A stretch of 42,252 nt of DNA, taken from the NCBI GenBank assembly GCA_002269645.1, contig NIVC01000724.1, forward strand, positions 64,379-106,630. The letters run 5' to 3'. Under the pieces are notes generated by a model, which did no database searches, was not told the DNA's origin, and worked only from the letters and a program-made list of their open reading frames with translations. Within the stretch, counting starts at the first letter, position 1; every line of letters begins with the position of its first letter. Of this stretch, positions 16,727 through 42,252 are shown piece by piece. Made by a program: the position numbers and the translations under genes. The stretch is from Macrostomum lignano (lineage: Eukaryota).

Positions 16727-16757
<31 letters not shown>

Positions 16758-20591: not shown

Positions 20592-21331
20592 CTGGGCAGC
20601 CAGTTAGCAAAAGTACAAATGTGAGCCAAAATGCACAGCAGCGTTAGTAATAGCAGCAGAGCCAACAGGTAAGGGACAATGTGACGCTTCAGTTTGAATT
20701 CCACTTTCAAGCAAGGATAGAAACCGGATGAGGTAGCGCTGCCTCTTGAACAGTCGATGAGTTCCAGCTCAGCAGGCGCTTGAAACTCGCTAATCTGCAT
20801 CGCGGAGTCTAACTCAATAGCTTTTCTGTATTCTGTGTTGTGCCACCGCAGTAACTGACGATTCGTTGTGTGGCGATGGCTTCCGATGTGAATTCTACAA
20901 TTCTGCGTATCAAATGAAAATGTCTGCAGCTGCATGTGGCAGGAGAACTTCACTGTGGTCTTCTGCGAGTAGAGGACGTTCCCGTTGCGCTGAACCTTGA
21001 TGAGATGGTTCGGCTGAGCCATCTTGTGCTGGTAACCTTCGTTGCCGTTCCGGAAGAACACATCCGGCAGCCACAGCGTGTCCCTCGCGTTCGAAAAGTC
21101 GATGGGATCAAAATAAGATTGGTACTGCCGAAGACTGTCCCAAGCCAGTCGGCGGTCTTGCCAGAACATTCTCAGGAACATTTCGACACTGAACTCCATG
21201 CTGACTGGGTCAATGTTGCTGATTCTCAAAATCTTGATGGTCAAATTCACTTTGACAGGTCCATCTTGATACATTGGCACCTGTTCTTTGTAGTAATCAA
21301 ACTTCCTGTCGAAAATTGGTCCCGGTAACAA
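20592..21331 (-). pseudogene. Divergent GluCl-like 5' exon B: ECD intact, M1 missing, no clear signal peptide or ATG; possibly functional as an atypical isoform
   Basis: WLPDVFFRN, CHMQLQTFSFDTQNC and CSRGSATSSGFYPC are retained. KLKRHIVPYLLA runs directly into the M2-like LLLLLTLLCILAH..NWLP-AG|gtaag. An in-frame TGA lies immediately upstream of 21331. Confidence 0.75.
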
Positions 21332-21573
21332 TCAGGAAAAGATTTTTGTCCCACTTTCGTTCAGAGATTTCAAAACAATTTTTATGGATGATAATTGTAG
21401 AAAATTTGGCACTTGCAAGCGAAATGCTAGCTAATGCTGTGTCCCTAAAAGAATAAGCTGGTTGCTTTGGTCACACTGTCTTCTCTTTATATCTTCGAGC
21501 AATCATTGAGTTATGTGATGGAGCCTTAAGAGATGAGAGGATGCTGACTGACAAATCTGACTCATTCTCATTG

Positions 21574-22024
21574 CACAGGGGCGTCGCCACCGGACGGGGG
21601 GACATGAGGACATGCCCCCCCTCCAGTAAAAGCTATGGGGGGGACATGCTACCCCACCTTGTGACTCGTGGTTGAAATCAATAATTTTGCTTCAGAGCGG
21701 CAAAACATAGCGCCTACTGCGCCAAAATGAGTGCCTGCGGCGCCAAAATGAGTGCCTGCGGCGCTAAAATGAGTGCCTGCGGTGCAAAAATGAGTGCCTG
21801 CGGCGCTAAAATGAGTGCCTGCGGCGCTAAAATGAGTGCCTGCGGCGCCAAAATGAGTGCCTGCGGGGCTAAAATGAGTGCCTGCAGCGCTAAAATGAGT
21901 GCCTGCGGTGCAAAAATGAGCGCTGACGACACCGATTCTGAAAATAATATACATTTAGGAATTTATTCATGTACATGTTCATGTAGAATACACCCACCAT
22001 AAAACCCATGGCGGCGCCCCTGTG
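21574..22024. mobile_element. MITE-like element with ~15-bp TIRs and an internal 21-bp tandem array
   Basis: CACAGGGGCGTCGCC at 21574 and GGCGGCGCCCCTGTG ending at 22024 are inverted with 1 mismatch. About 10 copies of GCCTGCGGCGCTAAAATGAGT lie at 21712-21921. No TSD was found. Confidence 0.7.
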
Positions 22025-24663
22025 ACATTTCAGGTAGTGAATCCATTCCCAGGAAAGACTCCGGAAGGTGTTGTACTGGTGACTACGAAACTATATTAGT
22101 TATCGTTCATTCATTCAAAACAAGTCTGTCTTGTTTCTGTGTCAGCTCAAGTTGTTCGTTGATCCGTCACGGCAAGAATATTGCTGCATCGACAGTTATA
22201 AAAAAGGTGTAAATTCTGTTAGTCAGCTGCGCAGACTGACAAGCACACGGATTTAATTTGTTGAATTGGGTTCAAGTACAAACTTCTTCAAACTTCAGTG
22301 GACAGGCCGACAGCTGACTAGCAAACATTGGCTTATTTTTGTAGCCAAGTCTAGAATTTTCCTCATCAGAATACTGCGCAGTTCCACGAAAGAAGGACTT
22401 GTAAGTTAACTAATGAAGCTTCTAATAAACAATTTTTTGCCTGCGAATTTTTCCTACCATATTGTCCTTTCTGGGAGCCGGCTGCAGCTCAGTTGCTCGA
22501 CTGAGTAAATTCAATTTAAAGACGCTTGGGAAACATTTCTGCTTTTCGTCTGCTGGGTTGAGCAATCCGAATCTGCGACAGAATCGACAGGACGCGAGTG
22601 AACAACCATGGCTCATCGACTTCTTCATCCGGGCAGCTAATTAGAAAAGAAGAATGCCAGGCCTCCGTGTCTGGGGTTCAGATCCAGTTATGGCCTGATT
22701 GAACAAGTTCTACTCATTTACTGTAAGTTTGACTACATTTTTACCAAATCCGTGGGGCTGGACTTACTAATCAAAAATGCATGCCATTCTGAGCCAAACT
22801 CTGCCCCCCAGTAGCCCCTTTAGCAAATCGAAAACCAACTGTAACTCGAGACTAATTTCCATGGACTGCATGGCTAGAATTGGTAAATTGACACCGTATG
22901 CACGGCGACTTGAGCTGTGCGTTGCTCAAGGCATAAGAGGAACCTTTTTTATACACAGCAGGGTCCTAGCTGTGTTCCTGTCAAGACAAGCAATAGTTAT
23001 CACTAACTAAGGGGCTGCTATAGAGAGGATCGATTCAAAAATACTGTAATTAAGCGAGTCTATTCGGTAAGACTTAGCAACTAAGCAACTAAGACAGGGA
23101 ATCTATCCACTCAATTGATAGAACGCGCCTCTTTCTGCTTTTCTGCCAGCCAGAGACGGTTTCGATTGATTTTACGATCTTTTGCAACCGTCTGCTCCTG
23201 CGCTTGAGCTTAGATGCATTATAGCAGAAAGATCTTCTGAGGAGGTATGAGGGGAGGGCATGATGGCCCATTGGAGTGGAAAAGAATTAGCCTTTGATTA
23301 CAGGCCGAGCCACCGATCTCATCGTCACTGAATGCACGGCTCGCTCACGTAGTACGGTACAGGTATTGGCCAAGCGATTTTCGCTGTTTAGTACTATACT
23401 AGCAAGATATGATTACATGTTCCCATATTGTAGAGTATAATAACGGTATTATGGCTTGTTAAGCTACAGAGGCTGCAATCTAAGATCCCCGAATCCCACT
23501 ATCTCCCTATCCTTTCATCAATGGGCTGCGTGTCCATCAATGACAGCTGTTTCTACTGCAGGTTTACAGAGAACATTTCGTTCTTAGGGTTCGATTGTAA
23601 GGCAGAAAGTCGCACGATGTCTGATCACTAATACACGCACCTGTCCCATCTCTGTCAATACATTTAATGTGCACCCCAAGTCAGCAGAGACCGCCGAGTT
23701 TCATTCCATTTGGTAGCGAATATCGTCATGCAGTAATGCAGTTGTCAATGTTGACACAGTGGGGTTAGGTTAGTGCAAACAGCTGGATCGGGGGGGGGCA
23801 TATGTGAGTTTTAAAACCTAATATAAGACAGCAGAAGTTGAAGGTAGCTCATGCACTCCCTATTAGCTACCATCGCAATTCTTTACTCTTACGAGTGCCT
23901 CGTTAGTCTCGGAATGAGACTTTGAGTAGAAAAAAAGTTCAGAGAGTCACGCCGCAAAGGAAGTGAGACAGCCCCCCTGCTGCTAGCCCAGCCTCTGCTG
24001 TCATGGTGGGCGCGCAGCTTTCTTCTTCTCTTTAGTCAAAGTTTAGTCGCAAAAAACGTTAAGAGGCAACGAGGAATGCTCTGACTGCCTGGAGAGTGTG
24101 GCGATGCGTTGAAAACAAGGCCAACCTCCCCCCTCTCTCTCTAATCCCTTCTCCCCAGGCCTGGCAATTAGTGTGAGCAGGCCCGTTGCAACTTTCGGAC
24201 TTTTCTCTGTGAGTCTCTGAGTGACCAGCTGCTTGGAGCAGAGCACGATGAACTGTGCACGTCTGGCGTCTGTGTGTGCGTGCGTGCCCAGAGCCGAGAG
24301 AGACGTGACGCACCAACAAGGGGCACGCGAAACGAAAGCGAAAGTTGAGGAGAGAAAGAGGAGCTCGCTATATAGCAAGAGAAAGAAAGCAAAAGATGTC
24401 GCCGAAGATTTCCTCAAAGTTTCTCTCCGGAGAGGAAGACTTGAAGTTTGGGGATTTGAGTCGAGAGTGCGGGAAGAAAAAAGGTAACGAAGATCGGGAG
24501 AGAGACCTGAGGGGCAGGCCTGAACAGGTCAAGAAGGCCTTCTCTAATTGCGATCAGATTGCCGCCATGTGAGCCTTCCGTTGTGTATTACTTATTCAAG
24601 CAAATTAAAAATAGCACCGAGGTGTCGACTGAGGGCGCATGACTCAGCGAGGCTGACTCTTAC

Positions 24664-25610
24664 CTGGGCAAGTTGTTGATGACTGACATGCCCTGGGTTA
24701 GGATGCCGAGCAGAGTGAGCACGCCGAGGGACACGCGAGCCGGTATGGCCTCAACGCTGATCCAGAAGTTCAGCCAGCTGACTGTCACGATGAGAATCGC
24801 GGGAATGTAGGTGCTGGACAGGTAACTGCCGAGCTGCCTCTCGAGGTTGAAGACAACCAACAGGCAGGCGTAGGCGCCGGTGCTGGTGGCGCTGCCCTTC
24901 GTGCAGTCGATGGTCTCGGCGCTGCTCGGCGTGTTAAACTCCGAGATTTGCATTGTGTCCAGCTCCACTGAGGCTTTATTCTCGTCTCGTTTCCATCGAA
25001 ACAGCAGGTTTCGAGTTGTGTATCCGTAGCTGCCAATATTCACAGTGCAGGTCTGCGTGTCCATCGGGAACGTCTGCAGCTGCATCTGGCAAGCGTACCG
25101 CATTGTAACCTTCTGCGAGTACAGGATGTGCCCGTTCGGCTCAACTCGGATTAGATAATTTGGCTGCGTCATCTCGTGCAGGTAGCCTTGCTTTCCATTG
25201 CGAAAGAAAAGATCTGGCAGCCACAGTTGCTCCTTCTTGGCCGGTATAGCGATGGAGTCATTGTAGAACTTGAACTGCGGGATATTCTCCCAGCTGAGCC
25301 GGTGATCGCGCCAGAACTGCCTCAGGTACATGTCCAGCGTGAACTCCATATTGATGACGTCGACCTTGTTGATGCTGAGAATTTTCATGTTCACTAACAC
25401 GAGTGTCGGGTCTTCCTCCAGTTTGCCGTCCTTGTTCTGCCTGCTGGCCGGCACGGGTCTCTGGTGCTTGTTGTAGTTGGTGAAGATGTGCCCTACGATT
25501 CGGTCCACAATGTTGGTGTAGTTCGGCTTCATTCCAGCTTGGCCTGATGCGGTCCCGAGCATCAGGAGAACCGAAGCGGCAACTAGTGTTGCTAGGCTCA
25601 GCGGCTGCAT
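24664..25610 (-). CDS. GluCl-like Cys-loop subunit 5' exon A: signal peptide, whole ECD, M1, M2
   Basis: ATG at 25610 (MQPLSLATLVAASVLLMLGTASG leader); WLPDLFFRN; CQMQLQTFPMDTQTC; PAR motif; ends NLP-AG|gtaag. Spliced to 13721-14207 it would give 477 aa. Confidence 0.92.
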
Positions 25611-27524
25611 GGCAACGTGGCAGTGGTTCTCCGCTGAGTTGCAGACCACCGCGTCTCCCTGCTACTTGTATGCAGGCCTCGCAGCTGAGGGCACCACAGC
25701 TTTGGCTTTTGTCCTTATGCGCTTCTTTGTCTGGCTTCCGGCCCGGGTTTAATCCAGCCGCGCGCTCAAGTCAGCTCGCTCTCGCTCCACCGTGCCGGAT
25801 TAAAGTCGAGGCGCTCCGGGCCTCTCCCGAGCCCTCCCGGTCTGAATAGAAGTCTTTTGTCTCTCGCTCTAGCTGGCTTTCTCAACCCAAGTGTGATGAG
25901 GCTTGAGAGTTTTGCAAACGAAACCTGAATTCTGAGTTGCTGGGTAAGGAGAGACTTTTCGCGTGCTCCTGCTGTACCTGCCCGCCCTGCCTCCTGGCTC
26001 TCGCGTTTCCTCAACGGAACCGGAGCTCTGGCGGCTGCGAGTAAGGAAGGTACAAAGCTATCGTGGGGGATGTTTTTGTAGGAAAAGCTGCTGGATAGTT
26101 GCGGGGAGAAATCTTTTGGCGGAAGGCCTGGGGAACGGCTGAACTTTAGGCAACGGGGGGAGGAGGGGAGCCTGAATGGAGGAGACTTCAATCGTCTAAA
26201 GCAGGTGGCAAAAAAACTGAGAAAGGACGAGGACGGGGAGCTATTTTGCCTTTTCCTTCATTGCCAACCTCCTCCCTCAGCATCCAGCCCGGCGGGCTCC
26301 AACCGCCTCTCGCGCCTCAGAAAATGGAAGTCTGTTGGCTGCAGGCGCGGACTCCGGCACTGCACAGCCAGCCCGGCCCGTTCCTCAGCGTGGGAACCAA
26401 TAGCAGAAGTCCGATGGCACAACTAAGAAGCTTTCCGCGAAACGAATGAAGATCCACTGCTGCTTAAGCGGAGCAAAATGTGGGAATGATGAGGGTTGAG
26501 AACTGGGAACTGGGAGGGGGGACTCGCATGGCCCCTCCGGCCACTTCCATTCTACATGTTCTGCTTGCGCTTATGGTAGTCCTATCTATCTACCGGTTTG
26601 GAAAACTCTTCTCATCGATATGTTGGGCTGGGAAATCTCGGATTTCTCAAGCGAGATTCTATTATTAGATCGTTTGATCCAGAGGGGAGGGGCCAGTCGC
26701 TCTAAAAGGAAGGACTTTTCTTTTCTCATTTTGCTTCTCCTTGTACCAGAGAGGCGGAATTTGGGAAATGTCAGCTGTCAAGACTTCGGACTTCCCAGGC
26801 CACCCCCTCCGCCCCTTGGGGCTGGTCGGAGTACAAGAAGGTCTGAGGAACAGAGGGAGGCCGCAACCGGTTATGCATCGATCTAGTTAGAGACGATTTA
26901 GTGCGAGACTTTAGAAAAGCGATCTGAACTAAAAAGCTGCTGTCAGAGACAAAGAGTCTCAACTTCGATTGCCTGCGGCAGAGACCTAAAACTGTTGAAC
27001 CTCGGTGACTTTCTCTAGCAGTTAAACGTTTTCGTTTCTAAGAATAGTTACCTACCGCCTGAGTTTTTTGAATTGGCTTAGTTCAAATGCGGTGAATTTC
27101 TCTTTAAAACTGACCTCGCGTGTCCTGCAGCCTACCGGGTTCTCTGAACTGATTGACTGGGAAGAAAAATGGATTTTACAAACGCAGCCTACTGATTTGG
27201 CCTTGCTGATGCTGAAATATGCGACTGCTTGGCACGAGGCTGCAAGCTGTGAAGCACCTGACCCAAGCTTGGGGTTTTAGCGCGTGTGGGCGTCATCTGT
27301 GCAGCGCTATAGAGCGACCTTGATTGCGACTGCTGACTGTCACGTTTGGCGGGATGAAAAACTGGGATCCATCGTTTGTTCCTGAACACATCCAGTTCGA
27401 CAAACTTTTCTTAGCGCTAATTGGCAGGTTGAAAGACCAGTTTGACATTTCTGTTCGGTCGATGAAATCTAGAGGGAAGATTTACACGTAGTCTTAAAAA
27501 CCGAGCGGTTCGAAATTAATGAGT

Positions 27525-27650: not shown

Positions 27651-28701
27651 TCAAAGAACCTCAGTTAAACTGTTGAATGAAATTTCAGGGATCTTTTGGG
27701 GGAGATAAAAACCTTAAAAAAGTGACTCATTAACTCTGTGCTGCTAAGTAAGCTACGAGCCGTATAAAATCGAAGGCTTAAAAAACTTGAAAATTTAAGA
27801 TTTTGTTTAAACTAGGCTCCGAGGGCAGAATTATATGCATGCGCATACAGGCATTGATGAGGCTCGCTTACAGCCTTCCCAGTAATCCCCCATAGGGATA
27901 ATAATGGAGGGAGATGGGGGTAGCTCTGCCCATACAGAATCTCACAGGCTAAGGTGGCTGTGACTCCCTTATTGAGCCAATATAATATCCTCTTGGCGAG
28001 TTTCACACCTTTGTAATTGGGGGGGGGGGGTGTTTTATTGTCCACAGCCAGCCACTTACTTCTTCAAGCAGCTGTGGCAGTCTGTGTGTGTGAGAGAGAG
28101 TGGCGAGAGTGAGAGTGAATGAGAGAGAAGCATTGTTGCCACAGCTTTTGGCAGGCTGAGGCTAGAATGATGAGGGAAGCTGGCGAGACCGGGGGCTACA
28201 TCAGGGGATAAGGACTAGATGAGGCCTGTGTGTGGGGAGTATTTTGCAAGCTCTAATGATGCGTACAGTGGGATCTCATGAGCGAGCAACTCAAGTTGCC
28301 GTTTCAGTTGAGAAAGCATCCATGGCGTGAATTTGTTGGGCAGGTGCACTAAGATGCGTCAGGCGCCCCCTCCCAGTCTTAGGTGAATGAAGGTTCATTA
28401 GTTATTCATGAGGACTCTGCATGTACCTAACACCCGATTAAATCTTATGAAGAAGGTTTCCCTTACAAAAATTGTTTACAGAGTGCCTACGGGTCTTATA
28501 CTTATCTACCACTGGCAGAAATTGCCTCTAGAAGTTTGATTGAGTTTTCTGCCGAGAACTGAAAAATCCTTCTCAGAATTCTCCTCGTAGTCTCTCTCTC
28601 CTCTCCTTCCCTCTCTCCCCCTTCGTCACCGCTCAATCCAGTTCAGAGCAATCTGCTTTTTTGAAAGTTTCTGACTAAATATTTTTCTGTCCAAAGTTCC
28701 A

Positions 28702-30400
28702 TGTCTAGAATCTCACCTTTATACTGGGAGTCTAGAATCTCACCTTTATACTGGGAGTCTAGAATCTCACCTTTATACTGGGAGTCTAGAATCTCAACCT
28801 TAGACTGGGAGTCTAGAATCTCACCTTTATACTGGGAGTCTAGAATCTCACCTTTATACTGGGAGTCTAGAATCTCACCTTTATACTGGGAGTCTAGAAT
28901 CTCAACCTTAGACTGGGAGTCTAGAATCTCACCTTTATACTGGGAGTCTAGAATCTCACCTTTATACTGGGAGTCTAGAATCTCACCTTTATACTGGGAG
29001 TCTAGAATCTCAACCTTAGACTGGGAGTCTAGAATCTCACCTTTATACTGGGAGTCTAGAATCTCACCTTTATACTGGGAGTCTAGAATCTCACCTTTAT
29101 ACTGGGAGTCTAGAATCTCACCTTTATACTGGGAGTCTAGAATCTCACCTTTATACTGGGAGTCTAGAATCTCACCTTTATACTGGGAGTCTAGAATCTC
29201 ACCTTTATACTGGGAGTCTAGAATCTCACCTTTATACTGGGAGTCTAGAATCTCAACCTTAGACTGGGAGTCTAGAATCTCAACCTTAGACTGGGAGTCT
29301 AGAATCTCACCCTTAGAAGATTGGGAGTCTAGAATCTTACCCTTAGACTGGGAGTCTAGAATCTCACCCTTAGACTTGAAGTCTAGAATCTCACCTTTAT
29401 ACTGGGAGTCTAGAATCTCACCTTTATACTGGGAGTCTAGAATCTCACCTTTATACTGGGAGTCTAGAATCTCACCCTTAGACTTGAAGTCTAGAATCTC
29501 ACCTTTATACTGGGAGTCTAGAATCTCAACCTTAGACTGGGAGTCTAGAATCTCACCTTTATACTGGGAGTCTAGAATCTCACCTTTATACTGGGAGTCT
29601 AGAATCTCACCTTTATACTGGGAGTCTAGAATCTCACCTTTATACTGGGAGTCTAGAATCTCACCTTTATACTGGGAGTCTAGAATCTCACCTTTATACT
29701 GGGAGTCTAGAATCTCACCTTTATACTGGGAGTCTAGAATCTCACCTTTATACTGGGAGTCTAGAATCTCACCTTTATACTGGGAGTCTAGAATCTCACC
29801 TTTATACTGGGAGTCTAGAATCTCACCTTTATACTGGGAGTCTAGAATCTCACCTTTATACTGGGAGTCTAGAATCTCACCTTTATACTGGGAGTCTAGA
29901 ATCTCAACCTTAGACTGGGAGTCTAGAATCTCACCTTTATACTGGGAGTCTAGAATCTCACCTTTATACTGGGAGTCTAGAATCTCACCTTTATACTGGG
30001 AGTCTAGAATCTCACCTTTATACTGGGAGTCTAGAATCTCACCTTTATACTGGGAGTCTAGAATCTCAACCTTAGACTGGGAGTCTAGAATCTCAACCTT
30101 AGACTGGGAGTCTAGAATCTCAACCTTAGACTGGGAGTCTAGAATCTCAACCTTAGACTGGGAGTCTAGAATCTCAACCTTAGACTGGGAGTCTAGAATC
30201 TCACCCTTAGAAGATTGGGAGTCTAGAATCTTACCCTTAGACTGGGAGTCTAGAATCTCACCCTTAGACTTGAAGTCTAGAATCTCACCCTTAGAAGATT
30301 GGGAGTCTAGAATCTTACCCTTAGACTGGGAGTCTAGAATCTCAACCTCAGACTGGGAATCTAGAATCTCACCCTTAGATGATTTGGAATCTAAAATCTC
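28702..30400. repeat. 27-bp minisatellite, roughly 63 units, with variant units; open as a 574-aa ORF (28701-30425)
   Basis: Unit TGGGAGTCTAGAATCTCACCTTTATAC (WESRISPLY) with variants STLD, PLED and PLDLK. Confidence 0.95.
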
Positions 30401-31073
30401 ATCGTTAGATTCGGTATGTTATTAGTTGTCCAGGAAAGCACCACTGCAGAAGCTTGAAAAGACACTTCAAAAAGTACATATAGTTAGTCACCTATTGAAC
30501 ACACGCGTCTCAAATTGAAAATACACTTCAAGCTGAAAAGGGGCCATGCCGAAAATAGCACAAAAAGTTTTGAAAGCGTTTAAACTTTCCAAATTGAATC
30601 AAAAAATTAGAGCTGACTCTGTAACGGGGAAAGAGAGCAATGCTCAACATGTGCTAGCTTTTCACCGCCAACTTTGAGTCAAGTCCTTATAATATGATAG
30701 AGTATTCACAGTATAACAGAATCGAACAGAGACAGAACAAAATGCATGCGATCACGCGACGCAGGCAAAGAGTTCGAGTTGCGCCTCGCGGGACTTCCTA
30801 ATAAGATCTTGATGAGAGTTGCTAGAGCCTTGGCTGAAGCACGTATTGCAGCAGATTGAGGCAGCGGCATGACAGGCCCTTCTGTGCATTTCGCGCCCTA
30901 ATAAGAGCTGGGGTCCATGAGACAGCAATATCACCCCTGAGGGTCAAAGTCTGATTCAATACCATTGCTCGCTGGAACGTGCCATTTGACTATCAGGGAT
31001 GCCAAAATTTTCTTGCAGCTCAACTGACCGAAAGAGTGCTTGTCGATGCAAAAAATTCAATAATCACACAGCC

Positions 31074-33753: not shown

Positions 33754-34002
33754 AAAGACATTTTTTCTAACTCTTCATAAAATTTTGCCAGCAATGTGTC
33801 CAAGTAATTGCTCTTTTAGTATATATCAAACAAGTCTGTAATCAATAATATAATCTCTATAAATTCATTATTCTAAAAAAATCTTTCAATTTTATTCACC
33901 ATTCATTGAAATTATTTAATTCAATATAAAGTCAATATCTTGTACAGTCATCATTAAACAAAAATTATTAATCCATGCAAATAATTTTTTTTCATACGTT
34001 TC

Positions 34003-34800
34003 TTTAGCCATGGTCTGGCTTTTGCCACAACAGTATGATTTAGCTGTGGTCCAGCTTTTGCCTCAACAGTATGATTTAGCTGTGGTCCAGCTTTTGCCTC
34101 AACAGTATGATTTAGCTGTGGTCCAGCTTTTGCCTCAACAGTATGATTTAGCTGTGGTCCAGCTTTTGCCTCAACAGTATGATTTAGCTGTGGTCCAGCT
34201 TTTGCCCCAACAGTTTTTAGCCGTGGTCCGGCTTTTTTGCCTCAGCAGTATGATTTAGCTGTGGTCTAGCTTAAAACTGCATCAACAGTGATTTAGCTAT
34301 AGTCCAGGCTTAACTACCTCAACGATGATTTAGCTATAGTCAAGGCTTAACTGTCTCAACAGTAATTTTAGCTGTTGTCCAGACTTAACTGCCTCAACAG
34401 TGATTTTAGCTGTGGTCCAGGCAACTGTCTCAACAGGGATTTAGCTGTAGTCCGATTAGCTTAACTGTCCAGTTATTTAGCTGTGAGCCAAGCAGCAGCA
34501 CCCGTCTCAACAGTGAGAATTAGCTATGGTCAGCTTTACCTCAACTGTGATTTGGCTGCTGTGGTCTAGCATAACTGACTCAACAGTAATTTTAGCTGTA
34601 GTCGTCCAGCTTAACCACCCGTCCAGTTTTATAACCATGGTCCAGCTTAACCACCGTCTCAACGTACAGCGATTTAGTCGTGGTCCAGCTTAACCGTCTC
34701 AACGTACAGTGATTTAGCCATGGGTCTAGTAGCAATTAACCGTATCAATAGTGATTTAGCCGTGGTCCAGCTTAACTGTCTCAACACAGTAATTTAGCTT
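34003..34800. repeat. 36-bp tandem array decaying into degenerate units
   Basis: GATTTAGCTGTGGTCCAGCTTTTGCCTCAACAGTAT is near-perfect to ~34200, then progressively diverged. Confidence 0.9.
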
Positions 34801-35426
34801 AGTCCAAACAGCATTTGTGTGTCAACTGCACTGACTGCATGCGGTTATAGCAGCGGCAGTCATTATAGTCCCAACAATTAGCTGCGCGTCGCAGCATGAT
34901 AGTGTAACTCTATATAGCTTCTGCTCAATATAGGACTGCAAAAGCTGAGTTACAACTATACATTTTTCTGTTTGAAAAGTAACACTCTATATATAGGTTA
35001 CTCAAGCAATCTCTTGTCACCGTGCGAGCTAAAAAATTCCAACATGCAAGCAAAACTTTCAATAAATTAATTTCATAGCACCGCGTGCAGCTTATTTTTA
35101 CTCTAAAATCCAAGATTGCTAATTTTTCAAGTCGCAAAATATTTTAATTACATTCTACTTGAGAACAAAACCAATCTAATGAAGCAGCAACCAGCAGTCT
35201 TCTTATTAAACGCTTGCCATCGTGTTACTCTTGCAAATTTATAACTAGTGTGCCTAAGATTCATTAATTTTATTGTATAAAATATCAACCTACATTTGCG
35301 TAAAATTAGACCTAATCATGCAACCCACCCTAGAAACTTATGCCACCTTTGGCACGCAACAATGTCTTAATCAGCACGCAACAATTAAATTTGTTTACTA
35401 GTTCACAAACAGCATGCAATGCTTGC

Positions 35427-35434
35427 TATAAATA
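35427..35434 (+). promoter_or_regulatory. Candidate canonical TATA box for the SSB-like gene
   Basis: TATAAATA about 85 nt upstream of ATG 35513. Confidence 0.4.
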
Positions 35435-35512
35435 CAAGACCCGAAATAGTCAATTTTTCATGAGCTCAATCATTACAGCAAAAGAAATACTATATTCAAT
35501 TGCTTGTAAGAC

Positions 35513-36711
35513 ATGGCAGCTTGCATCAAGACGGAGTCAATTGTACGCTCCGACTCGAGTCCGATTTTTTACGTTGGAGAGCAGTCTACAACCACGACTG
35601 GTTCGTCCTGCCAGTTTCGATCTATTGCGTGGAAACCATCAATCGAGTGTACAAAATGGTACCCAATTATATTGCAAACCAAGGCTCCAATGGAGCTTTT
35701 TCGTGGAATCGCAGAAAGGCCAGAGCTCGATCATCCGTCTTGCAGACACGACTCTCGCGACGCAGTAAGTGTCCAATTTCATCCAGACAGCTGCGATAAG
35801 GAACTCTTCCACTCTCTCCGGTGAGCACCATATTAAATTTATACAATTAATTTTAGGAAACTATATTCATAATTTATATAATGTTTTGCAGTCAAGTCGA
35901 AAAAGGTCTATCGGTCAAGTTGAACGAGATTCAAGATGCTCGACCCTTGGCACGACTAACAAAACCAGCTCATCAGCATGCTAACGACGTCCTCGAGTTT
36001 GTGCCTCAACAATGGCTGGCTATAAAGCCTGCTTACCCTTGTGCCACAATCAGGATCAGCAACGATCATCCACACGGGAAGGAGGTGTCCATTTCCGATT
36101 TCAAAGGTGTCAGCGGTACCTACCAAATGACAGTGCAAGCAACGAGCTTGTATTGTCCAAAAGGCTGCCTCGTCTGGCGCATTACATTCGCTGTGCGCTC
36201 TCTGACACTCATAGAATCTTCCGACAACATGTTGCAGCGCCTCGACATGTTCAAGGGAGTGCTTGCACACCTACCCGCGACCAAGTCAGCAATTAGAAGC
36301 AGGAGTCCGTCCCCAACATCTACCTGTGAGCAAGAAGAAGCAAATGAACAAAGCCTGCAGAATTCAAGCCAGGTGACACCTGCCAAGTCACCTGCAAAGC
36401 GTCGGTCTACCACCACCGTATCGAAGAAGTCGACTACATCGAATGCAGCGCCAGCCTCTATTGAACCACCGCCTAAAAAGCAAGTTCGAAAACGCAGCGG
36501 TGCAAAACAGCAAAACAATTCTGCCGAAGCTGGTGCAGATGGCACAGACTGGGTGGAGGCTCCACCAGCAAAGATCTTGGTGAGTACACCTGCCTCTGGA
36601 ACCAGGGTAGCGTCCAAGGAGACAGCATTTTTAAAGCGTGCTGCTGCGGACGCTACTACAGCTAGCGTGTCTTCATCGGACGACTCGTACAGCAGCTCTG
36701 ATGATGAGTAA
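35513..36711 (+). CDS. Two-exon gene (35513-35820 + 35892-36711, 375 aa), putative T7 gp2.5/NCLDV-like OB-fold ssDNA-binding protein
   Basis: A 71-nt intron GTGAG...TTTTGCAG joins ORF 35513 in frame to ORF 35881 (..HSL-R-QVEKG..). PIILQT.PM..F.GI / KG..YQMTVQATSLY..WRITFAVRSL plus an acidic tail (SSSDDSYSSSDDE) resemble that family. The family call is by eye. Confidence 0.55.
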
Positions 36712-36921
36712 CAAAATTTTTGACTAATTTTATCCAATTTTTAACTAACTTATTCCACTATATTTATCAAATTTTTGGCTAGGGAAATATTATTTTTTAG
36801 GGAAAAGCTCAAAACATTGTTTGCTACTCCTTGTACGCTAACCAGGTTTTGTAATTTAATATTAGAATTTACGATAGTATAGTCATGTTTAACTTTTCTT
36901 ATTATTTATTTTCCGTTTTAG

Positions 36922-37479
36922 CGACTTGTCCTATTAATAGTTACTGCGAGTCTGAAGCTGCACCCGTTTGAAAAATTTGATTTAAAGCAGACCAAACAGA
37001 AGCTACAGACCAGAAACCGGTTTTGCAAACTATTCCTAAGCCGACCAACAATGCTAAAGACAATTTATTCAAATGCTAAAATCCAACTTTATCCAGCAGG
37101 AAAACTAACTATATATGGCTGTAAATCAAATTCTCAGATAGTCTCAGTTTTACGATTTATCAACGACACTATTAATTGTGTAGATTTTGATTCAGTAAAA
37201 ATTCAGAGCAGTACCTATGTCGGCTTTATTGGTCATCTTTGGCCAAAATTCGGTTTCTCTAGTCTAAAAAGATATGCAGGCTACTATTCGAATTATCTGG
37301 TTGGATACGATGCAGAAAATTTCCCACAAGCAGTTTCTGTTAGATCAGCATCAAAACCAAGGCTTTTTTGTAACATATTTTTTTCGAAAAAGTTTGTTAT
37401 TATGGGCGTTCAAAACACTCATGAATTGAATAATATTCTTAACCATGTCAAGGATTTTTTAATCTCTGTTAATAACTAA
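36922..37479 (+). CDS. Divergent TATA-binding-protein-like ORF (two TBP repeats)
   Basis: IQLYPAGKLTIYGCKS resembles LIFSSGKMVCTGAKS, YDAENFPQ resembles YEPELFPG, and IFFSKKFVIMGVQ resembles IFVSGKVVLTGAK. The frame is open upstream of ATG 37051 back to 36922 (LIVTASLK..FDLK resembles NIVSTVNL..LDLK), right after an acceptor-like TTTTAG. Confidence 0.75.
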   Translation, partial: RLVLLIVTASLKLHPFEKFDLKQTKQKLQTRNRFCKLFLSRPTMLKTIYSNAKIQLYPAGKLTIYGCKSNSQIVSVLRFINDTINCVDFDSVKIQSSTYVGFIGHLWPKFGFSSLKRYAGYYSNYLVGYDAENFPQAVSVRSASKPRLFCNIFFSKKFVIMGVQNTHELNNILNHVKDFLISVNN

Positions 37480-37702
37480 ACTTAACAAGTAAACAATTGC
37501 TGTCAAATCGCAGTTGCGATGCATTCTTTTACAAACATTTTGTCTTTTTTTATTTATTTACCAATTGTTTTCTCTAATAGTAAACGTGTCAGCTATATCT
37601 ATAACTAACCAAATCATCATTTTTCTTACAGCCGCAAATGACAAACCGGATCATCTATTAATATTATGCTCGATACGCTCGTTGTCGAGCTAGGTGCACA
37701 CA

Positions 37703-38440
37703 ATGCCGCGTGCACAATGCCAAATCTGCAGAAAAAAGTTCAGTAATCAAGCCGAGCTGCATGCTCACTCGCATGGTGCTTGTTTTTCACCGCAACGATT
37801 ACTGACCGGATCGCTGCAAAACCTGATCGAAAACCCACCAGATGGGTGGTCCATCGCTTTGCGCGAGTCAGCTCATCGTGGTCGGGTAAATTTTGTCGAA
37901 TTTACTCCCACTCTTGAACAACAAGGCAACAGCTCTGGCGAGTTACTTCCTGGCGAGTTGATTGCGTCTTTAAGAGAACCAATATTTAAAATATTGGAAA
38001 AAATTGGCTCACCCAGTTTATTAATAAGAGTCTGCTTTCACTTGAAAGTGACACTATTTCGACCGAAAACAGCAGCAGACGACAACGATGGCTCGAGCAG
38101 CGAAGAGATCATTTCGGTCTATTTTAATACCAACATTGCGACAATATCATTTGATGAGACGATTGCAAACAGTGACATGCTGTTATCTCCCGAGGCCTAC
38201 AATGACTGGTTCGCACGCGTTATTAATCAGTTGTTAATAAAAATTGACAATTTTCAATCTCGAGGTAGTAATTGGCAATATAGAGCAATCGAGCAGCTAG
38301 ACTTGATGCTCTGCGTTTATCGCAAAAGCCATGCAAGCACACTGTCAACAAATACGTCCCACGGTGGTGTGGGGGCGGGCGGCGGCAGTGGTGGTGGTGG
38401 TGGCGGTGGTGGTGGTGGTGGTGGCGGCGGTGGTGGTGGT

Positions 38441-38472
<32 letters not shown>

Positions 38473-38810
38473 GCGCGGGGAGTCCGGTCCAGTCCGGTCC
38501 GGTCCAGTCCGGTCCGGTCTGGTTAAGCAGCAATCGTTTAAAGTTCCAGTCTCAATCGGTCGCAAAGCTGGAGCAGTACTGCTTCTAAAGCCGCACAGAG
38601 CAGTTTAAAGCATCAAGACTATTTAAGAGTCTTACACAAGCGACAACTTGTGTTTTCGCGCATGCAGTCCATTCGTTCTCGAAAACAGAAAGTTTTTTTT
38701 GATGCAACAAAGAAAACTTGCACTAAGCTTCTTCGATACGAAGCGATCCTGGACAAGTTCAATTAATTCGCTACCCTTTGGACACTGGCACTTGGCTAAT
38801 TAATTAACAA
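37703..38810 (+). pseudogene. Truncated N-terminal region of Polinton-type protein-primed DNA polymerase B (Zn finger plus RGS.W motif), with poly-Gly expansion
   Basis: CQIC..H..C zinc finger. KIDNFQSRGSNWQYRAIEQLDLMLCVYRK resembles Polinton IDEF.ERGSGW..I..LD...Y. After stops at 38606 and 38624 the same frame reads SDNLCF (typical DNKCF motif). No exonuclease or polymerase motifs follow. Confidence 0.65.
38371..38520. repeat. (GGT/GGC)n poly-Gly tract followed by (GTCCG/GTCCA)n
   Basis: Direct inspection. Confidence 0.95.
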
Positions 38811-39095
38811 TATGCTCTGATCTCTTTTGTTGTACAAAGTAATAGCATGCTATAGAAGACTGTAACCCATCATTAATTTTTTCATTGATCATTATTTACA
38901 ATAAATAAATGATACCGGCATTCGTTTAAATTATAATTTTAGCACTTTTTTGTGTTTAATTATTTGAAAAAGTATATTTTTTATAGTTAGATTCTCAAGA
39001 CTAAGCTTGTGTTTGTAGTAGACGTAAATGTAGTGCTATCGTTCATGTTTCAAGAAAAAAAACTTTTTTTTAAACTTTCAGCTACAAGAATCGAC

Positions 39096-39578
39096 ATGAA
39101 TCCCGAGCAGCAGCAGCAACAACAACTAACTGATCGTAAGCTTTTAGTTGAACGTCTATACGATTCGGCAACGATTCCGACCCGAAAAACTGTCGGGTCG
39201 ATCGGGTATGATCTTTGCGCTGGCGTCGATGGTACCATTCCGGCCTACGAGTCCCGGAGTGTGCGAACCGGACTCAAAATTCGCTTACCGCCTGGTACCT
39301 ATGGCAGGATAGCGGGACGTTCCAGCATGGCTCTGCACAGCTTATTTGTTGGCGGTGGCGTAATCGACCCCGACTATACTGGTGAAATCTGTATAGTCTT
39401 GTTTAATTACAGTCCGGAAGACTTTGAGTACTATGCCGGGCTCAGTATTGCACAACTGGTTCTGGAGCAGGCCGTGCTTGCTTCAGTCTATGTGACTGAA
39501 GCAGACAATTCGATTCGGATGATTGAGCCGCCGACCAAGCGGCGCGGCTTTGGCGGCTTTGGCAGCACTGGCCAATAA
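39096..39578 (+). CDS. dut: Trimeric dUTPase
   Basis: All five motifs present: GYDL, GRSS, GVIDPDYTGEI, IAQL, RGFGGFGSTG. Likely ATG at 39096. Confidence 0.95.
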   Translation: MNPEQQQQQQLTDRKLLVERLYDSATIPTRKTVGSIGYDLCAGVDGTIPAYESRSVRTGLKIRLPPGTYGRIAGRSSMALHSLFVGGGVIDPDYTGEICIVLFNYSPEDFEYYAGLSIAQLVLEQAVLASVYVTEADNSIRMIEPPTKRRGFGGFGSTGQ

Positions 39579-39648
39579 GTATAATAATAATAATAAACTG
39601 ATTTTTTTCTTTGGTGATTGGTGCACTATGCGAGAGCTTTGTAAATAC

Positions 39649-39657
39649 TATAAGCAA
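39649..39657 (+). promoter_or_regulatory. TATAAGCAA motif upstream of the PLA2 gene
   Basis: Identical 9-mer 45 nt before ATG 39694; also present at 40812 and 41855. Confidence 0.6.
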
Positions 39658-39693
39658 TTTTAAAAATTTATGCCTAAAATATATGTTGTAAAA

Positions 39694-40113
39694 ATGTCTC
39701 CAGCGAAAGATCGAGGTTTTAAAAAGAAAAAGAAGAGCATTCGTAAAAAGAAGAAATCTATTAGAAAGATTAATAAAAAGCAACAAGGTTATGGTGTCGT
39801 AAATTGGTTAATTAATCATTTACCATTTGAAGCACATTTACCCGGCGGATATCAGTTTTGTGGTCCAGGTACGCAACTGCAAGCTAGGCTAGCAAAAGGA
39901 CAACGAGGAATTAATCGGCTTGACAATTTGTGCATGCTTCACGACGTGGCCTATGATAAAAATTCTGACGTGCAAGAGAGGTTAAAAGCTGATAAGCTAT
40001 TAGAATCTGGTGCACGAGAGATTGCCCACGATCCGTCTACTGGTTGGAAAGAAAAACTAGCTGCGAAGTTGGTTACCAAGGTTATGCAAGTTAAGCAACG
40101 CTTTGGTGCTTGA
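39694..40113 (+). CDS. Parvovirus VP1u-type phospholipase A2 virion protein with Lys-rich N-terminus
   Basis: HLPGGYQFCGPGT (Ca-binding loop), LDNLCMLHDVAY (catalytic HD), ADKLL. ATG at 39694, alternative ATG at 39670. Confidence 0.9.
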   Translation: MSPAKDRGFKKKKKSIRKKKKSIRKINKKQQGYGVVNWLINHLPFEAHLPGGYQFCGPGTQLQARLAKGQRGINRLDNLCMLHDVAYDKNSDVQERLKADKLLESGAREIAHDPSTGWKEKLAAKLVTKVMQVKQRFGA

Positions 40114-40115
40114 AA

Positions 40116-40805
40116 ATGCAGCAGCCATACAATATGCAACTAGCTCACGATTCTACATTTATTATTGCTGGACCTTCAAACTCGGGTAAAACTGAATGGA
40201 CGTTGCGTTTGTTGACTGAACGAAAAGAATTATTTGATAAAAAACCGTGCCGTCTTGTTTGGTGCCATGGATCAAGTTTGAAACCAGACGATCAACAACG
40301 AATTAGAACATGCTGGCAAAAAAGCGGTCTTGACCCTATTGTTTTTGTACCCGAATTCACACCACAGATGATTAATCGTTTTTTACCACACGATTTGGTT
40401 GTTGTTGACGACTTGCAAAGCGAGATTGCTAAGTTGCCAGAATTTACTAGTATGTTTACAAAGCATGCGCATCATATCCCTTTGACTTGTCTGTACCTTT
40501 GTCAAGGTCTTTTTAACAAGTCTGATCCAGAAGCACGCATGCGAAGTTTATCAGCTAGTTATATTTGTCTAACTCGTAGTGTGCGCGATCGAACCACAGT
40601 TGAACATCTCGGTCGACAAATGTATCCGCGTAATAGTAGGTTTCTAGTGAATGTGTATGAAGACGCAACAAATAACAAACCTTTTTCATATTTATTCATT
40701 GACCTGCGGCAAGTGACACCAGATTTTTTACGATTGAGAACAGGAATATTTTCTGGTGATGAACAAGTTGTCTATACTCGTGAATGTGATGCAAAGTTTG
40801 TGTAA
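40116..40805 (+). CDS. FtsK/HerA-family (A32-like) genome packaging ATPase
   Basis: Walker A GPSNSGKT, Walker B LVVVDDLQ, and the Polinton-typical H..LCQ.LF..R..S.SASY..L.R..RD / PFSYLFIDL...RLRTGIF. Confidence 0.93.
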   Translation: MQQPYNMQLAHDSTFIIAGPSNSGKTEWTLRLLTERKELFDKKPCRLVWCHGSSLKPDDQQRIRTCWQKSGLDPIVFVPEFTPQMINRFLPHDLVVVDDLQSEIAKLPEFTSMFTKHAHHIPLTCLYLCQGLFNKSDPEARMRSLSASYICLTRSVRDRTTVEHLGRQMYPRNSRFLVNVYEDATNNKPFSYLFIDLRQVTPDFLRLRTGIFSGDEQVVYTRECDAKFV

Positions 40806-40811
40806 TATTAT

Positions 40812-40820
40812 TATAAGCAA
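40812..40820 (+). promoter_or_regulatory. TATAAGCAA motif upstream of the penton gene
   Basis: 51 nt before ATG 40863. Confidence 0.6.
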
Positions 40821-40862
40821 ATTATAAACTGTTGTCAATATTAGTTTGTGTTTTATTTCAAA

Positions 40863-41852
40863 ATGAGTTTTTACGTTTTTTTGCCGTCAAACGATATCAG
40901 TTACGAAACCAACTCGCCTAATGAATTTCGAGTGCGACTAACTGAACCAATAAATTTATTGAACGGATTCTTCGAGGTTGCACTAGTTGAATTACTGTGC
41001 CATGGAGCAATTACGACGCCAAATGCTCATCGTGAGCGTCGATTTGAAGTTCCATATTTTGCGGACATTGACTCAATAATACGATTAAAGAAAAACTATT
41101 GGGGTCGTGTTTGGGCAGAGGCAGACTTGGATGCTTACGTTTCCTGGCAACCGTCTGGTACAGATGAAAAATTTGCCTGGCTTTTACGAAATTCAGGCGA
41201 AAAAACTATTGGATTAGAACTACCAGTTACATTTATGGACGCTTTCAAATTTGACTCTTGGAAGAAACTTTCTGGACTTGTCTCGGAAAAATTATCAAAA
41301 CCTGCCGCTGGTAGTGTACAACCACCGGATGGTTCATACTTGGATTTGATAAAAAGTCTCGACAATACTCTAGCGCTAGTACCTGAGAACTATTATGTTT
41401 TTTATTGTGTTCTATCGCCTGGTGAAGCTATACGACTTGTTTCGCATGGAGACTATCTTCGAAAAACGGAAGGAGAAGTGTACATCAAAGTACACCAATA
41501 TTGGTTGAGAAATCGTGTTTGGCGCATTAACAAAACCTACTTGGATGCTGTGCTACCTTCTCCGATGCCTAGTAAAACGGTTTACATGTACTGTTACACA
41601 GATATAATCGAGTATCAAGCAGTGGGAAGTACATCAGTACCGTTGCTTCGAGTTGTGGAACTCCAACAAAAGAAAAACGGAGAACTTATACGCGATAGCA
41701 GTGCATTGCAAACACCCTACTACTTGAAAACAAATCGACAACAAATTCACGAGATTTCGATTCGACTATCGGACCAGCGCGGAAAACCGTTTAATTTTGA
41801 TCCGGGAGCACACGTTGTTGTCGTACTGCATTTTAAACATAGGTCGGACTAA
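40863..41852 (+). CDS. Minor capsid protein (penton, Polinton PX-like)
   Basis: N-terminal FYVFLPSN..N.PNEFRVRL.EPI.L..FEVALVEL. C-terminal YMYCYTDIIEYQ.VG..VPLLRVV..PYY..I.I.L.DQ.G.P..F..VVVVLHFK. Confidence 0.85.
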   Translation: MSFYVFLPSNDISYETNSPNEFRVRLTEPINLLNGFFEVALVELLCHGAITTPNAHRERRFEVPYFADIDSIIRLKKNYWGRVWAEADLDAYVSWQPSGTDEKFAWLLRNSGEKTIGLELPVTFMDAFKFDSWKKLSGLVSEKLSKPAAGSVQPPDGSYLDLIKSLDNTLALVPENYYVFYCVLSPGEAIRLVSHGDYLRKTEGEVYIKVHQYWLRNRVWRINKTYLDAVLPSPMPSKTVYMYCYTDIIEYQAVGSTSVPLLRVVELQQKKNGELIRDSSALQTPYYLKTNRQQIHEISIRLSDQRGKPFNFDPGAHVVVVLHFKHRSD

Positions 41853-41854
41853 TT

Positions 41855-41863
41855 TATAAGCAA
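41855..41863 (+). promoter_or_regulatory. TATAAGCAA motif upstream of the GGFLP core-protein gene
   Basis: 53 nt before ATG 41908. Confidence 0.6.
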
Positions 41864-41907
41864 AGATTAATTGTGTAATAGAAAATTTTGTGAATTTGTT
41901 TTTAAGA

Positions 41908-42252
41908 ATGAGCGAACTAACAGAAAAAGGAAAACAAAATGCTCGCTCATTGTGTCAGTGTGCTTTTTTACTACAAATTGTTTATCGGCTAAAGCATCCA
42001 AAGCAGAGAAAAAGTTTTTTACAAACACTTTCAGAGTCGGAGATACGATGTCTAGTAGACTTTCTGTTTAATATTATTAGTGGACGTATTAAAATTAGTA
42101 ACTGTAACAAAAGACGACTTGAGAAGCATCGCAGATATATACGCCAGCTTTTGGAACAGAAGACTCCAATTACTGCAAAAAGGAAAATACTTGTCCAACA
42201 CGGAGGATTTTTACCTTTTTTGGCTCCAATTATTGCCGCTCTACCTGCTATA
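41908..42252 (+). CDS. Polinton small core/virion protein (PW or adenovirus pX-like), truncated by the window end
   Basis: Not in the ORF track because it has no stop in the window. MSELTEKG..KQRKSFLQTLSESEIRCLVDFLFNIISG..RLEKHRRYIRQL..KRKILVQHGGFLPFLAPIIAALPAI; the GG|FLP..IIAA end resembles adenovirus pX. Confidence 0.8.
   Translation, partial: MSELTEKGKQNARSLCQCAFLLQIVYRLKHPKQRKSFLQTLSESEIRCLVDFLFNIISGRIKISNCNKRRLEKHRRYIRQLLEQKTPITAKRKILVQHGGFLPFLAPIIAALPAI

What the first reader, a model, noticed from the sequence alone, without database searches (positions are those of the whole stretch)
35513..37479. Predicted alternative splicing fuses the SSB-like protein to the TBP-like domain
Seen: the TBP homology extends to 36922 with no in-frame ATG before 37051, directly after an acceptor TTTTAG (36916-36921). 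The SSB exon 2 contains a perfect phase-0 donor TTG|GTGAGT at 36580. A 36580-36921 intron (342 nt) joins ..PPAKIL to RLVLLIVTASL.. in frame, giving a 517-aa OB-fold-linker-TBP protein. Not splicing gives the 375-aa SSB with an acidic tail. Inference: one locus could couple ssDNA replication intermediates to late transcription.
Basis: inference. Interest (0 to 1): 0.7.

Follow-up and report, generated by a model that had tools for sequence, protein, structure and literature searches.

The report
Polinton splice site linking SSB–TBP
In a virus-like Polinton element of the flatworm Macrostomum lignano, a gene for a predicted single-stranded-DNA-binding protein carries a splice-donor signature, kept at the same spot in five divergent families, that likely lets a minority of transcripts join it to the start-codon-less TATA-binding-protein gene next door; RNA assemblies so far show only the unfused form, and the worm's AUG-ending spliced leader, seen on the next gene, could start that protein instead.

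Summary
The sequence observation holds: intron 1 (35821-35891), donor TTG|GTGAGT at 36580, acceptor at 36921, and the 375-aa and 517-aa arithmetic. The host is Macrostomum lignano. The upstream protein folds like ASFV CP312R/T7 gp2.5; the downstream exon is TBP-like and has no start codon of its own.

RNA: intron 1 is spliced in 6 of 8 runs, but the fusion joint appears in 0 of 8 and contigs read through the donor in 5 of 8. The unfused SSB is therefore the main product; contigs drop rare isoforms.

The donor still looks selected. K-x-L|V-S is the only invariant block of the tail in five families 31-34% identical, the codons form a perfect donor with 2.4% chance, and two other-family gene models leave the frame at that point.

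Verdict: a minor SSB-TBP fusion is likely (about 0.5) but not shown; coupling of replication to late transcription is untested (about 0.25).

The parts
35427..35434 (+). TATA-like box (TATAAATA) 86 nt before the SSB ATG; candidate promoter
   Evidence: sequence; function inferred
35513..35820 (+). SSB exon 1 (308 nt, ends in phase 2)
   Evidence: matches P0001
35765..35770 (+). Second perfect hexamer A|GTAAGT inside exon 1; serves as control. No joint listed from it, and V-S is not kept here in the other four families
35821..35891 (+). Intron 1, 71 nt, GT..AG
   Evidence: joint in 6 of 8 runs, 3 studies
35892..36579 (+). SSB exon 2, part shared by both products: rest of the CP312R/gp2.5-type fold, then a disordered basic linker
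36466..36495 (+). Basic stretch PPPKKQVRKR in the linker, resembling a nuclear-localisation signal; kept in both products
   Evidence: sequence; motif type recalled, untested
36577..36585 (+). Candidate internal donor TTG|GTGAGT (L332|V333-S334), phase 0
   Evidence: use in RNA not shown
36580..36711 (+). Read-through tail of the SSB (43 aa: conserved RVxxKxxA motif and Ser/acidic end, stop at 36709-36711); 5' part of the proposed intron 2
   Evidence: contigs cross the donor in 5 of 8 runs; conserved
36712..36921 (+). 210-nt AT-rich spacer (GC 0.25) with branch-point-like words, no poly(A)-type hexamer of 12 tested, and the acceptor TTTTCCGTTTTAG
36922..37479 (+). TBP-like exon, 185 aa, two TBP repeats, no ATG before 37051
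   Evidence: Pfam PF00352 E 2.2e-7
37480..37631 (+). 152-nt spacer ending in acceptor TTCTTACAG; spliced leader joined at 37631
   Evidence: loose end in run X8 equals the 3' end of the published leader
37703..38608 (+). Third cistron: weak C2H2-finger hit plus a segment resembling the N-terminus of Polinton pPolB, interrupted by a GGT/GGC microsatellite
   Evidence: pPolB likeness recalled, no library hit
39649..39657 (+). TATAAGCAA box before the PLA2-domain gene (ATG 21 nt after box start)
40812..40820 (+). TATAAGCAA box before the minor-capsid-like gene
   Evidence: gene label recalled
41855..41863 (+). TATAAGCAA box before the pX-like ORF at the window end
   Evidence: gene label recalled

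Best explanation
The locus makes a 375-aa predicted ssDNA-binding protein by reading through an internal splice donor, and likely also a minor 517-aa product in which that donor is joined to the start-codon-less TBP-like exon. SHOWN: intron 1 is spliced; contigs read through 36580; the third cistron receives the host spliced leader, so the region is processed like an operon. INFERRED: SSB, TBP and the third gene share one precursor RNA. If the precursor is cut after the SSB stop, the freed acceptor at 36921 would take the leader, whose terminal AUG starts a 186-aa TBP. If splicing comes first, the donor pairs with that acceptor, removes the SSB's acidic tail and stop, and yields SSB fold + basic linker + TBP. 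The fusion would give the TBP a start codon, a possible nuclear signal and a tether to single-stranded replication intermediates. The TBP would then read the TATAAGCAA boxes before the virion-module genes. Those functional steps are untested (about 0.25).
For: (1) K330, L332, V333, S334 are invariant in five families 31-34% identical; they are 4 of only 6 invariant columns among 84 ungapped tail columns, and the only block. V-S is what a phase-0 GTRAGT encodes. An alignment-free search finds K.LVS 42-49 residues from the C-terminus in 8 of 15 proteins held. The other 7 end earlier or leave the frame; L-V-S arises in 4-8% of shuffled tails per family. (2) Codons in this copy form G|GTRAGT with 2.4% chance given L-V-S. 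(3) Model P0012 (BOX15 set, RNA-guided per PMC5730564) reads KDL then PI-stop where P0011 reads KDL|VS; model P0009 skips 28 residues from KVL; P0010 ends at KV. (4) Control: the other perfect hexamer (35765) is not kept as V-S in 4 of 4 other families and no joint from it is listed. (5) The acceptor is among the strongest in the region, is in phase, and no poly(A)-type hexamer lies in the spacer. (6) Starting at Met 37051 would drop 43 residues, about half of the first TBP repeat. (7) In parasitic flatworms cis- and trans-splicing share acceptors widely, on average 66% of leader sites (PMC12582326, passages).
Against: No 36579-to-36922 joint in 8 of 8 runs from 5 studies, although the intron-1 joint is present in 6 of them. 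Contigs cross the donor unbroken in 5 of 8 and cross the acceptor unspliced in 4 of 8 (piece tables were cut; contigs drop rare variants). No annotated fusion: the TBP exon finds no protein of 325-2000 aa, and the SSB profile finds 4 proteins, none with a TBP domain. The read-through tail is itself conserved, so K-x-L-V-S may be a protein motif. Codons in the other families could not be seen. Gene models in this set also splice at another V-S site (P0003, P0013), which weakens P0009, and P0012 could reflect a damaged copy. In parasitic flatworms cis-splicing is strongly prevented at operon-resolving acceptors (PMC12582326). The leader AUG explains the missing start codon without any fusion.
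Confidence: 0.5

Rival explanations
1. Leader only: SSB and TBP are two cistrons of an operon. The acceptor at 36921 takes the spliced leader, whose 3' AUG starts a 186-aa stand-alone TBP, and the donor look-alike is a by-product of a conserved K-x-L-V-S peptide.
For: Leader joined at 37631 in run X8; its 24 letters equal the 3' end of the published 35-nt M. lignano leader, which ends in ATG (PMC8629364). In frame at 36922. Spacers of 210 and 152 nt are well under the paper's 1-kb operon threshold. Leader-supplied start codons are known in Schistosoma (Cheng et al. 2006, seen only as cited in PMC9851317). The nearest TBP clusters by features are stand-alone proteins of 180-199 aa. No fusion joint in 8 of 8 runs.
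Against: No leader listed at 36922 in 8 of 8 runs (the control site was seen in only 1 of 8, so this is weak). It must treat the perfect donor codons (2.4%) on the only invariant tail block, and the P0012/P0009 departures, as coincidence.
Confidence: 0.25
2. The donor is real but pairs with a nearer acceptor, trimming or swapping the SSB's C-terminal tail; the TBP is started by the leader.
For: P0009 joins KVL to a point 28 residues on in the same frame; P0012 ends two residues after KDL. Neither shows TBP sequence after the donor.
Against: No joint from 36579 to any site in 8 of 8 runs. The nearest in-frame AG in this copy (36636) ranks 167 of 225, while 36921 ties for first.
Confidence: 0.15
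3. The TBP exon is translated from Met 37051, from a near-cognate codon, or from another short upstream exon, or is not translated in this copy.
For: Contigs cross the acceptor unspliced in 4 of 8 runs. Residues 1-46 have no HMM hit of their own. The single-sequence model is poor (mean pLDDT 46).
Against: The frame is open from the first base after the acceptor and is closed by TAG just before it. The only ATG in the spacer (36885) is out of frame. An internal start would remove about half of repeat 1.
Confidence: 0.1

Closest known systems
T7 gp2.5 / ASFV CP312R / iridovirus P31K-type ssDNA-binding proteins
   Same: Model residues 1-211 match CP312R (8hw5, Z 10.2, rmsd 4.9, 186 aligned), T7 gp2.5 (1je5, Z 6.0) and Enc34 SSB (5odk, Z 5.7); P31K and CP312R among 82 viral hits at E<=0.001; Ser/acidic tail.
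   Different: Only 7-8% identity; split by a spliceosomal intron; long basic linker; an internal donor that would swap the acidic tail for a TBP domain. ssDNA binding untested.
TBP family (PF00352), including TBP-like genes of Nucleocytoviricota and of MELD viruses (PMC8502044, passages: one figure-legend mention)
   Same: Two TBP repeats; aromatic residues Y57, F134, F153 align with TBP phenylalanines (their DNA-intercalating role is recalled).
   Different: Very divergent; no start codon of its own; N-terminus must come from splicing, cis or trans.
Beta/gamma-herpesvirus viral TBP mimics (KSHV ORF24; PMC12529657 and PMC4893493, search listing and start of abstract only)
   Same: A virus-encoded TBP-like domain, with a variant TATA box in front of virion-module genes; late genes there start only after DNA replication begins (10.1101/401976, start of abstract).
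   Different: ORF24 works in a six-protein activator complex and no homology to it was tested. Here the partner would be an SSB joined by alternative splicing.
Flatworm operons and leader-supplied start codons (PMC8629364, PMC9851317, PMC12582326)
   Same: Short same-strand spacers, a leader on a downstream acceptor, and a leader ending in AUG that is in frame with an ATG-less ORF.
   Different: Described for host genes; here on a virus-like element, and with a conserved upstream donor that would compete for the same acceptor.

Membership tests
Alternative cis-spliced SSB-TBP fusion | Consensus donor and acceptor in matching phase | tested here: met
Alternative cis-spliced SSB-TBP fusion | Donor position conserved in related elements | tested here: inconclusive
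Alternative cis-spliced SSB-TBP fusion | Junction present in RNA | tested here: inconclusive
   0 of 8 contig sets; contigs drop rare variants
Leader-resolved operon | Spliced leader on a downstream cistron | tested here: met
   37631 in 1 of 8 runs; sequence match to PMC8629364
Leader-resolved operon | Spliced leader at 36922 | tested here: inconclusive
   0 of 8 runs
Leader-resolved operon | Same-strand spacers under 1 kb | tested here: met
   210 and 152 nt; threshold from PMC8629364
gp2.5/CP312R-type SSB | gp2.5-like OB fold | tested here: met
   (Z 10.2, next unrelated rows about 3 or less); core pLDDT mostly 60-80, whole model 46, one good model of five
gp2.5/CP312R-type SSB | Acidic C-terminal tail | tested here: met
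   P0001 ends in a Ser/Asp/Glu tail; similar in P0002, P0011, P0015
gp2.5/CP312R-type SSB | Binds ssDNA | not testable with these tools
   needs a binding assay
TBP family (PF00352) | Two TBP repeats above the curated cut-off | tested here: met
   31 bits against 22.9, two stretches; atlas score 0.96
TBP family (PF00352) | Saddle fold including the first half of repeat 1 | tested here: inconclusive
   single-sequence model pLDDT 46, no Foldseek match; residues 1-65 no hit
TBP family (PF00352) | Binds a TATA-type box | not testable with these tools
   TATAAGCAA occurs 3 times against 0.33 expected (motif picked by eye first); binding untested
Polinton/Maverick (adintovirus) | PLA2-domain gene of Alpha-type virion modules | tested here: met
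   PF08398 E 3.6e-9; PMC8502044 passages
Polinton/Maverick (adintovirus) | Packaging ATPase and capsid genes | tested here: inconclusive
   Walker-type motifs at 40116-40805 and a minor-capsid-like ORF recognised from recall; no library hit
Polinton/Maverick (adintovirus) | Protein-primed DNA polymerase B and integrase | tested here: inconclusive
   no PolB or integrase Pfam hit among 28 ORFs scanned; only an N-terminal-like segment at 37703; the element runs off the window
Polinton/Maverick (adintovirus) | Terminal inverted repeats and 6-bp target duplication | not testable with these tools
   right end outside the window; no genome held
Herpesvirus vTBP (ORF24 type) | Homology to ORF24 and its activator complex | not tested
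   used as a functional analogy only

The most novel reading that the evidence does not exclude
Macrostomum Polintons use competition between cis-splicing and leader trans-splicing at one acceptor as an early-to-late switch: the same exon yields either a leader-started free TBP or an SSB-TBP chimera that lacks the acidic tail, rides on displaced single strands, and fires the TATAAGCAA late boxes only on replicating genomes.
Probability: 0.25. Interest if true: 0.85.

Novelty: new variant of a known kind. Interest (0 to 1): 0.6.

Why it matters
How Polintons/Mavericks time their genes is poorly known. An SSB-TBP chimera would be a one-protein link between genome replication and late transcription, a link that herpesviruses make with a multi-protein complex. 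Either outcome is informative: if the leader supplies the start codon instead, a virus-like element depends on the host's trans-splicing AUG to make its own transcription factor. The leader on a Polinton transcript is shown here at one site in one run. I did not find an SSB-TBP splice fusion or leader trans-splicing of Polinton RNA in the listings of five searches (open-licence library only, most hits seen as title and abstract start). M. lignano is a laboratory model, so one junction count or one RT-PCR pair settles the splicing question.

Tried and rejected
No genome is held, so donor and acceptor nucleotides in other copies could not be compared. No RNA holder is listed on record; all runs are guessed RNA and kept as contigs. 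I laid 8 of the 24 listed runs and none of the six unlabelled ones (X15-X20); X1 shows no intron-1 joint and may be DNA; X14 has no cover across intron 1. Coverage gaps in the spacer in X6, X8, X10, X12, X13 and X14 fall at different places and were not used as evidence for an SSB 3' end; depth was not used to rank genes. TBP-exon homologue searches found nothing at 101-324 aa or 325-2000 aa. Scans for related loci found nothing: metagenomes with the TBP exon and the SSB alignment, viral contigs with the SSB alignment and the ATPase. The TBP model was too poor for a fold search, and the two TBP halves do not align in register by BLASTP. An alternative intron 1 (35765-35856, also in frame) was rejected because RNA shows 35821-35891. 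One search read the dUTPase ORF in a wrong frame for codon counts (2.9%); one search corrected it (2.4%). Pfam hits on the 27-bp tandem array at 28643-30425 were rejected as repeat artefacts. No complex prediction was sent, because the TBP exon has no alignment. No supplementary files were read; junction or leader tracks in the supplements or browser of PMC5730564 could bear on the claim.

Full report
What was checked. The upstream gene starts at 35513, has a 71-nt intron (35821-35891) and stops at 36711, giving 375 aa; that protein is in UniRef as P0001. GTGAGT at 36580 is in phase 0, the acceptor ends at 36921, and a 342-nt intron would give 517 aa. The downstream frame opens at 36922, directly after a TAG, and has no ATG until 37051. 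G|GTRAGT occurs once on the + strand of 35513-42252. The acceptor ties for first of 225 AG sites in pyrimidine content. That TBP homology reaches 36922 is an extrapolation: Pfam aligns residues 47-84 to model positions 44-82 of 85, and residues 1-65 alone give no hit.

Context. The left two-thirds of the window is host DNA with ligand-gated ion-channel genes. The right end holds a compact same-strand gene run: SSB-like, TBP-like, a zinc-finger/pPolB-N-like ORF, dUTPase, a PLA2-domain gene, an ATPase-like ORF and a minor-capsid-like ORF. dUTPase and PLA2 are Pfam hits. The other labels are recalled motifs with no library hit. PLA2 genes mark Alpha-type adintovirus modules (PMC8502044, passages). 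I call it a Polinton-like element; the polymerase, integrase and right end are not in the window. All 13 proteins in the five clusters looked up are named Macrostomum lignano, as are the two further hits.

The two proteins. A model of P0001 from a 13-row alignment has a core mostly at pLDDT 60-80 and a disordered tail from residue 215; only one of five models was good. Its best match among 48,161 chains is ASFV CP312R (Z 10.2, rmsd 4.9, 186 aligned), then T7 gp2.5 (6.0) and Enc34 SSB (5.7); giant-virus and iridovirus proteins, P31K among them, lead the viral library. The acidic tail of gp2.5 affects its DNA binding (PMC10359462, abstract). The downstream exon passes the Pfam TBP cut-off with two repeats, aligns with solved TBPs over residues 50-181 and scores 0.96 against stand-alone TBP clusters of 180-199 aa. 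Its single-sequence model was too poor to search.

RNA evidence. I laid 8 of 24 listed runs, from 5 studies, all guessed RNA and kept as contigs. The intron-1 joint appears in 6 of 8 (X2, X6, X8, X10, X12, X13; 3 studies). The 36579-to-36922 joint appears in 0 of 8. By the 31-letter rule, listed contigs cross the donor in 5 of 8 (X1, X2, X8, X10, X12) and cross the acceptor unspliced in 4 of 8 (X1, X2, X6, X13); 35 and 5 pieces were not shown. Read-through is therefore the main form in these samples. Contigs drop rare variants, so a minor isoform is not excluded. Run X8 has a 23-letter loose end at 37631, the next acceptor. With the G at 37631 it equals the last 24 nt of the 35-nt M. lignano spliced leader, which ends in ATG (compared by eye with PMC8629364; passages and part 1 of 2 of Results). 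So this element's RNA is leader trans-spliced at one site at least. The same leader on the acceptor at 36921 would give Met in frame and a 186-aa TBP. Leader-supplied start codons are reported in Schistosoma (Cheng et al. 2006, seen only as cited in PMC9851317, passages). No leader was listed at 36922 in 8 of 8 runs; since the control site showed in only 1 of 8, this blank is weak.

Is the donor selected? After I favoured the leader alone; the paralogues moved me back. In five families 31-34% identical to P0001, K-x-L|V-S is invariant exactly at the donor. It supplies 4 of 6 invariant columns among 84 ungapped tail columns and is the only block. A phase-0 GTRAGT encodes V-S. Given L-V-S, this copy's codons make G|GTRAGT with 2.4% chance; 2 of 11 V-S pairs in the element's ORFs are GTRAGT and only this one has G at -1. 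The other one (35765) is not kept as V-S in 4 of 4 other families and shows no joint. Model P0012, from the RNA-guided BOX15 set (method in PMC5730564, passages), leaves the frame right after KDL; P0009 does so after KVL; P0010 ends at KV. Against this: neither model continues into TBP sequence; models P0003 and P0013 splice at another V-S, so predictors in this set use such sites freely; the read-through tail is conserved too, so the motif may act at protein level; the other families' codons could not be read; and no fused protein is annotated. In parasitic flatworms cis- and trans-splicing share acceptors widely but cis-splicing is strongly prevented at operon-resolving ones (PMC12582326, passages), which cuts both ways.

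How it most likely works. One precursor RNA covers SSB, TBP and the third gene (inferred; contigs across genes do not show a single transcript). Most molecules keep the SSB tail (shown for these runs). The TBP exon needs an N-terminus from splicing (inferred). If the precursor is cut after the SSB stop, the leader would supply Met. If splicing wins, the donor would give SSB fold + basic linker + TBP without the acidic tail. I put 0.5 on the fusion existing as a real minor isoform (with or without the leader form beside it), 0.25 on leader only, 0.15 on a real donor with a nearer acceptor, and 0.1 on other starts. A possible target for the TBP exists: TATAAGCAA occurs three times in the window against 0.33 expected, each 21-53 nt before the next ATG in the virion module (the motif was picked by eye first). 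That the fusion couples replication to late transcription is untested; I give it 0.25.

Comparison and novelty. It works like a herpesvirus-type viral TBP with a variant late box (PMC12529657, PMC4893493: listing and abstract start), but membership was not tested. A TBP-like gene is mentioned once for MELD viruses (PMC8502044 and 10.1101/697771, passages), and 'splic' does not occur in the main text of PMC8502044. Earlier notes of this scan describe Polinton TBPs and TATAAG-type boxes, and one (e1-8573555) also reads the TBP as spliced onto the gene in front; these are unchecked leads, not support. In five searches no listing described an SSB-TBP splice fusion or leader trans-splicing of Polinton RNA. 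Verdict: new variant of a known kind, interest 0.6.

Noticed in passing
window 37631: Host spliced leader joined to a Polinton-like transcript (run X8). Here the leader AUG opens a 9-codon upstream ORF out of frame with the main ATG at 37703.
   Followed up: partly
window 39649, 40812, 41855: Identical TATAAGCAA box before three virion-module genes and nowhere else in the window; the SSB gene has TATAAATA instead.
   Followed up: partly
window 37703-38800: The pPolB-N-like ORF carries a GGT/GGC microsatellite, and no polymerase body follows before dUTPase at 39096; the element may lack PolB here. An earlier unchecked note (e1-8580994) describes split Polintons in this genome.
   Followed up: no
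window 39081: Strong acceptor-like site (TTTCAG) 14 nt before the dUTPase ATG; another candidate leader or cis acceptor. Outside the stretches laid with reads.
   Followed up: no
window 35404-35446: Runs X1 and X2 hold contigs that match only this 43-nt stretch around the TATA box and then run into other sequence, as if another gene or element family shares this promoter piece.
   Followed up: no
window about 32335; 33967-34800: AGTAGT at about 32335 resembles a Polinton terminus (recalled), and a 36-nt tandem array lies before the SSB gene. Contigs in X8 and X2 run from about 34190 into SSB exon 1.
   Followed up: no
window 13721-25661 (minus strand): Tandem cluster of at least three ligand-gated ion-channel genes with long exons (Pfam PF02931/PF02932).
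   Followed up: no
window 28568-30425: Array of 27-bp repeats open in two frames; its Pfam hits look like repeat artefacts.
   Followed up: no
P0001-P0015: UniRef names for these SSB-like proteins (VASt, OTU, HORMA, YDG, VgrG and others) are not supported by Pfam for the five scanned and look like automatic mislabels.
   Followed up: partly
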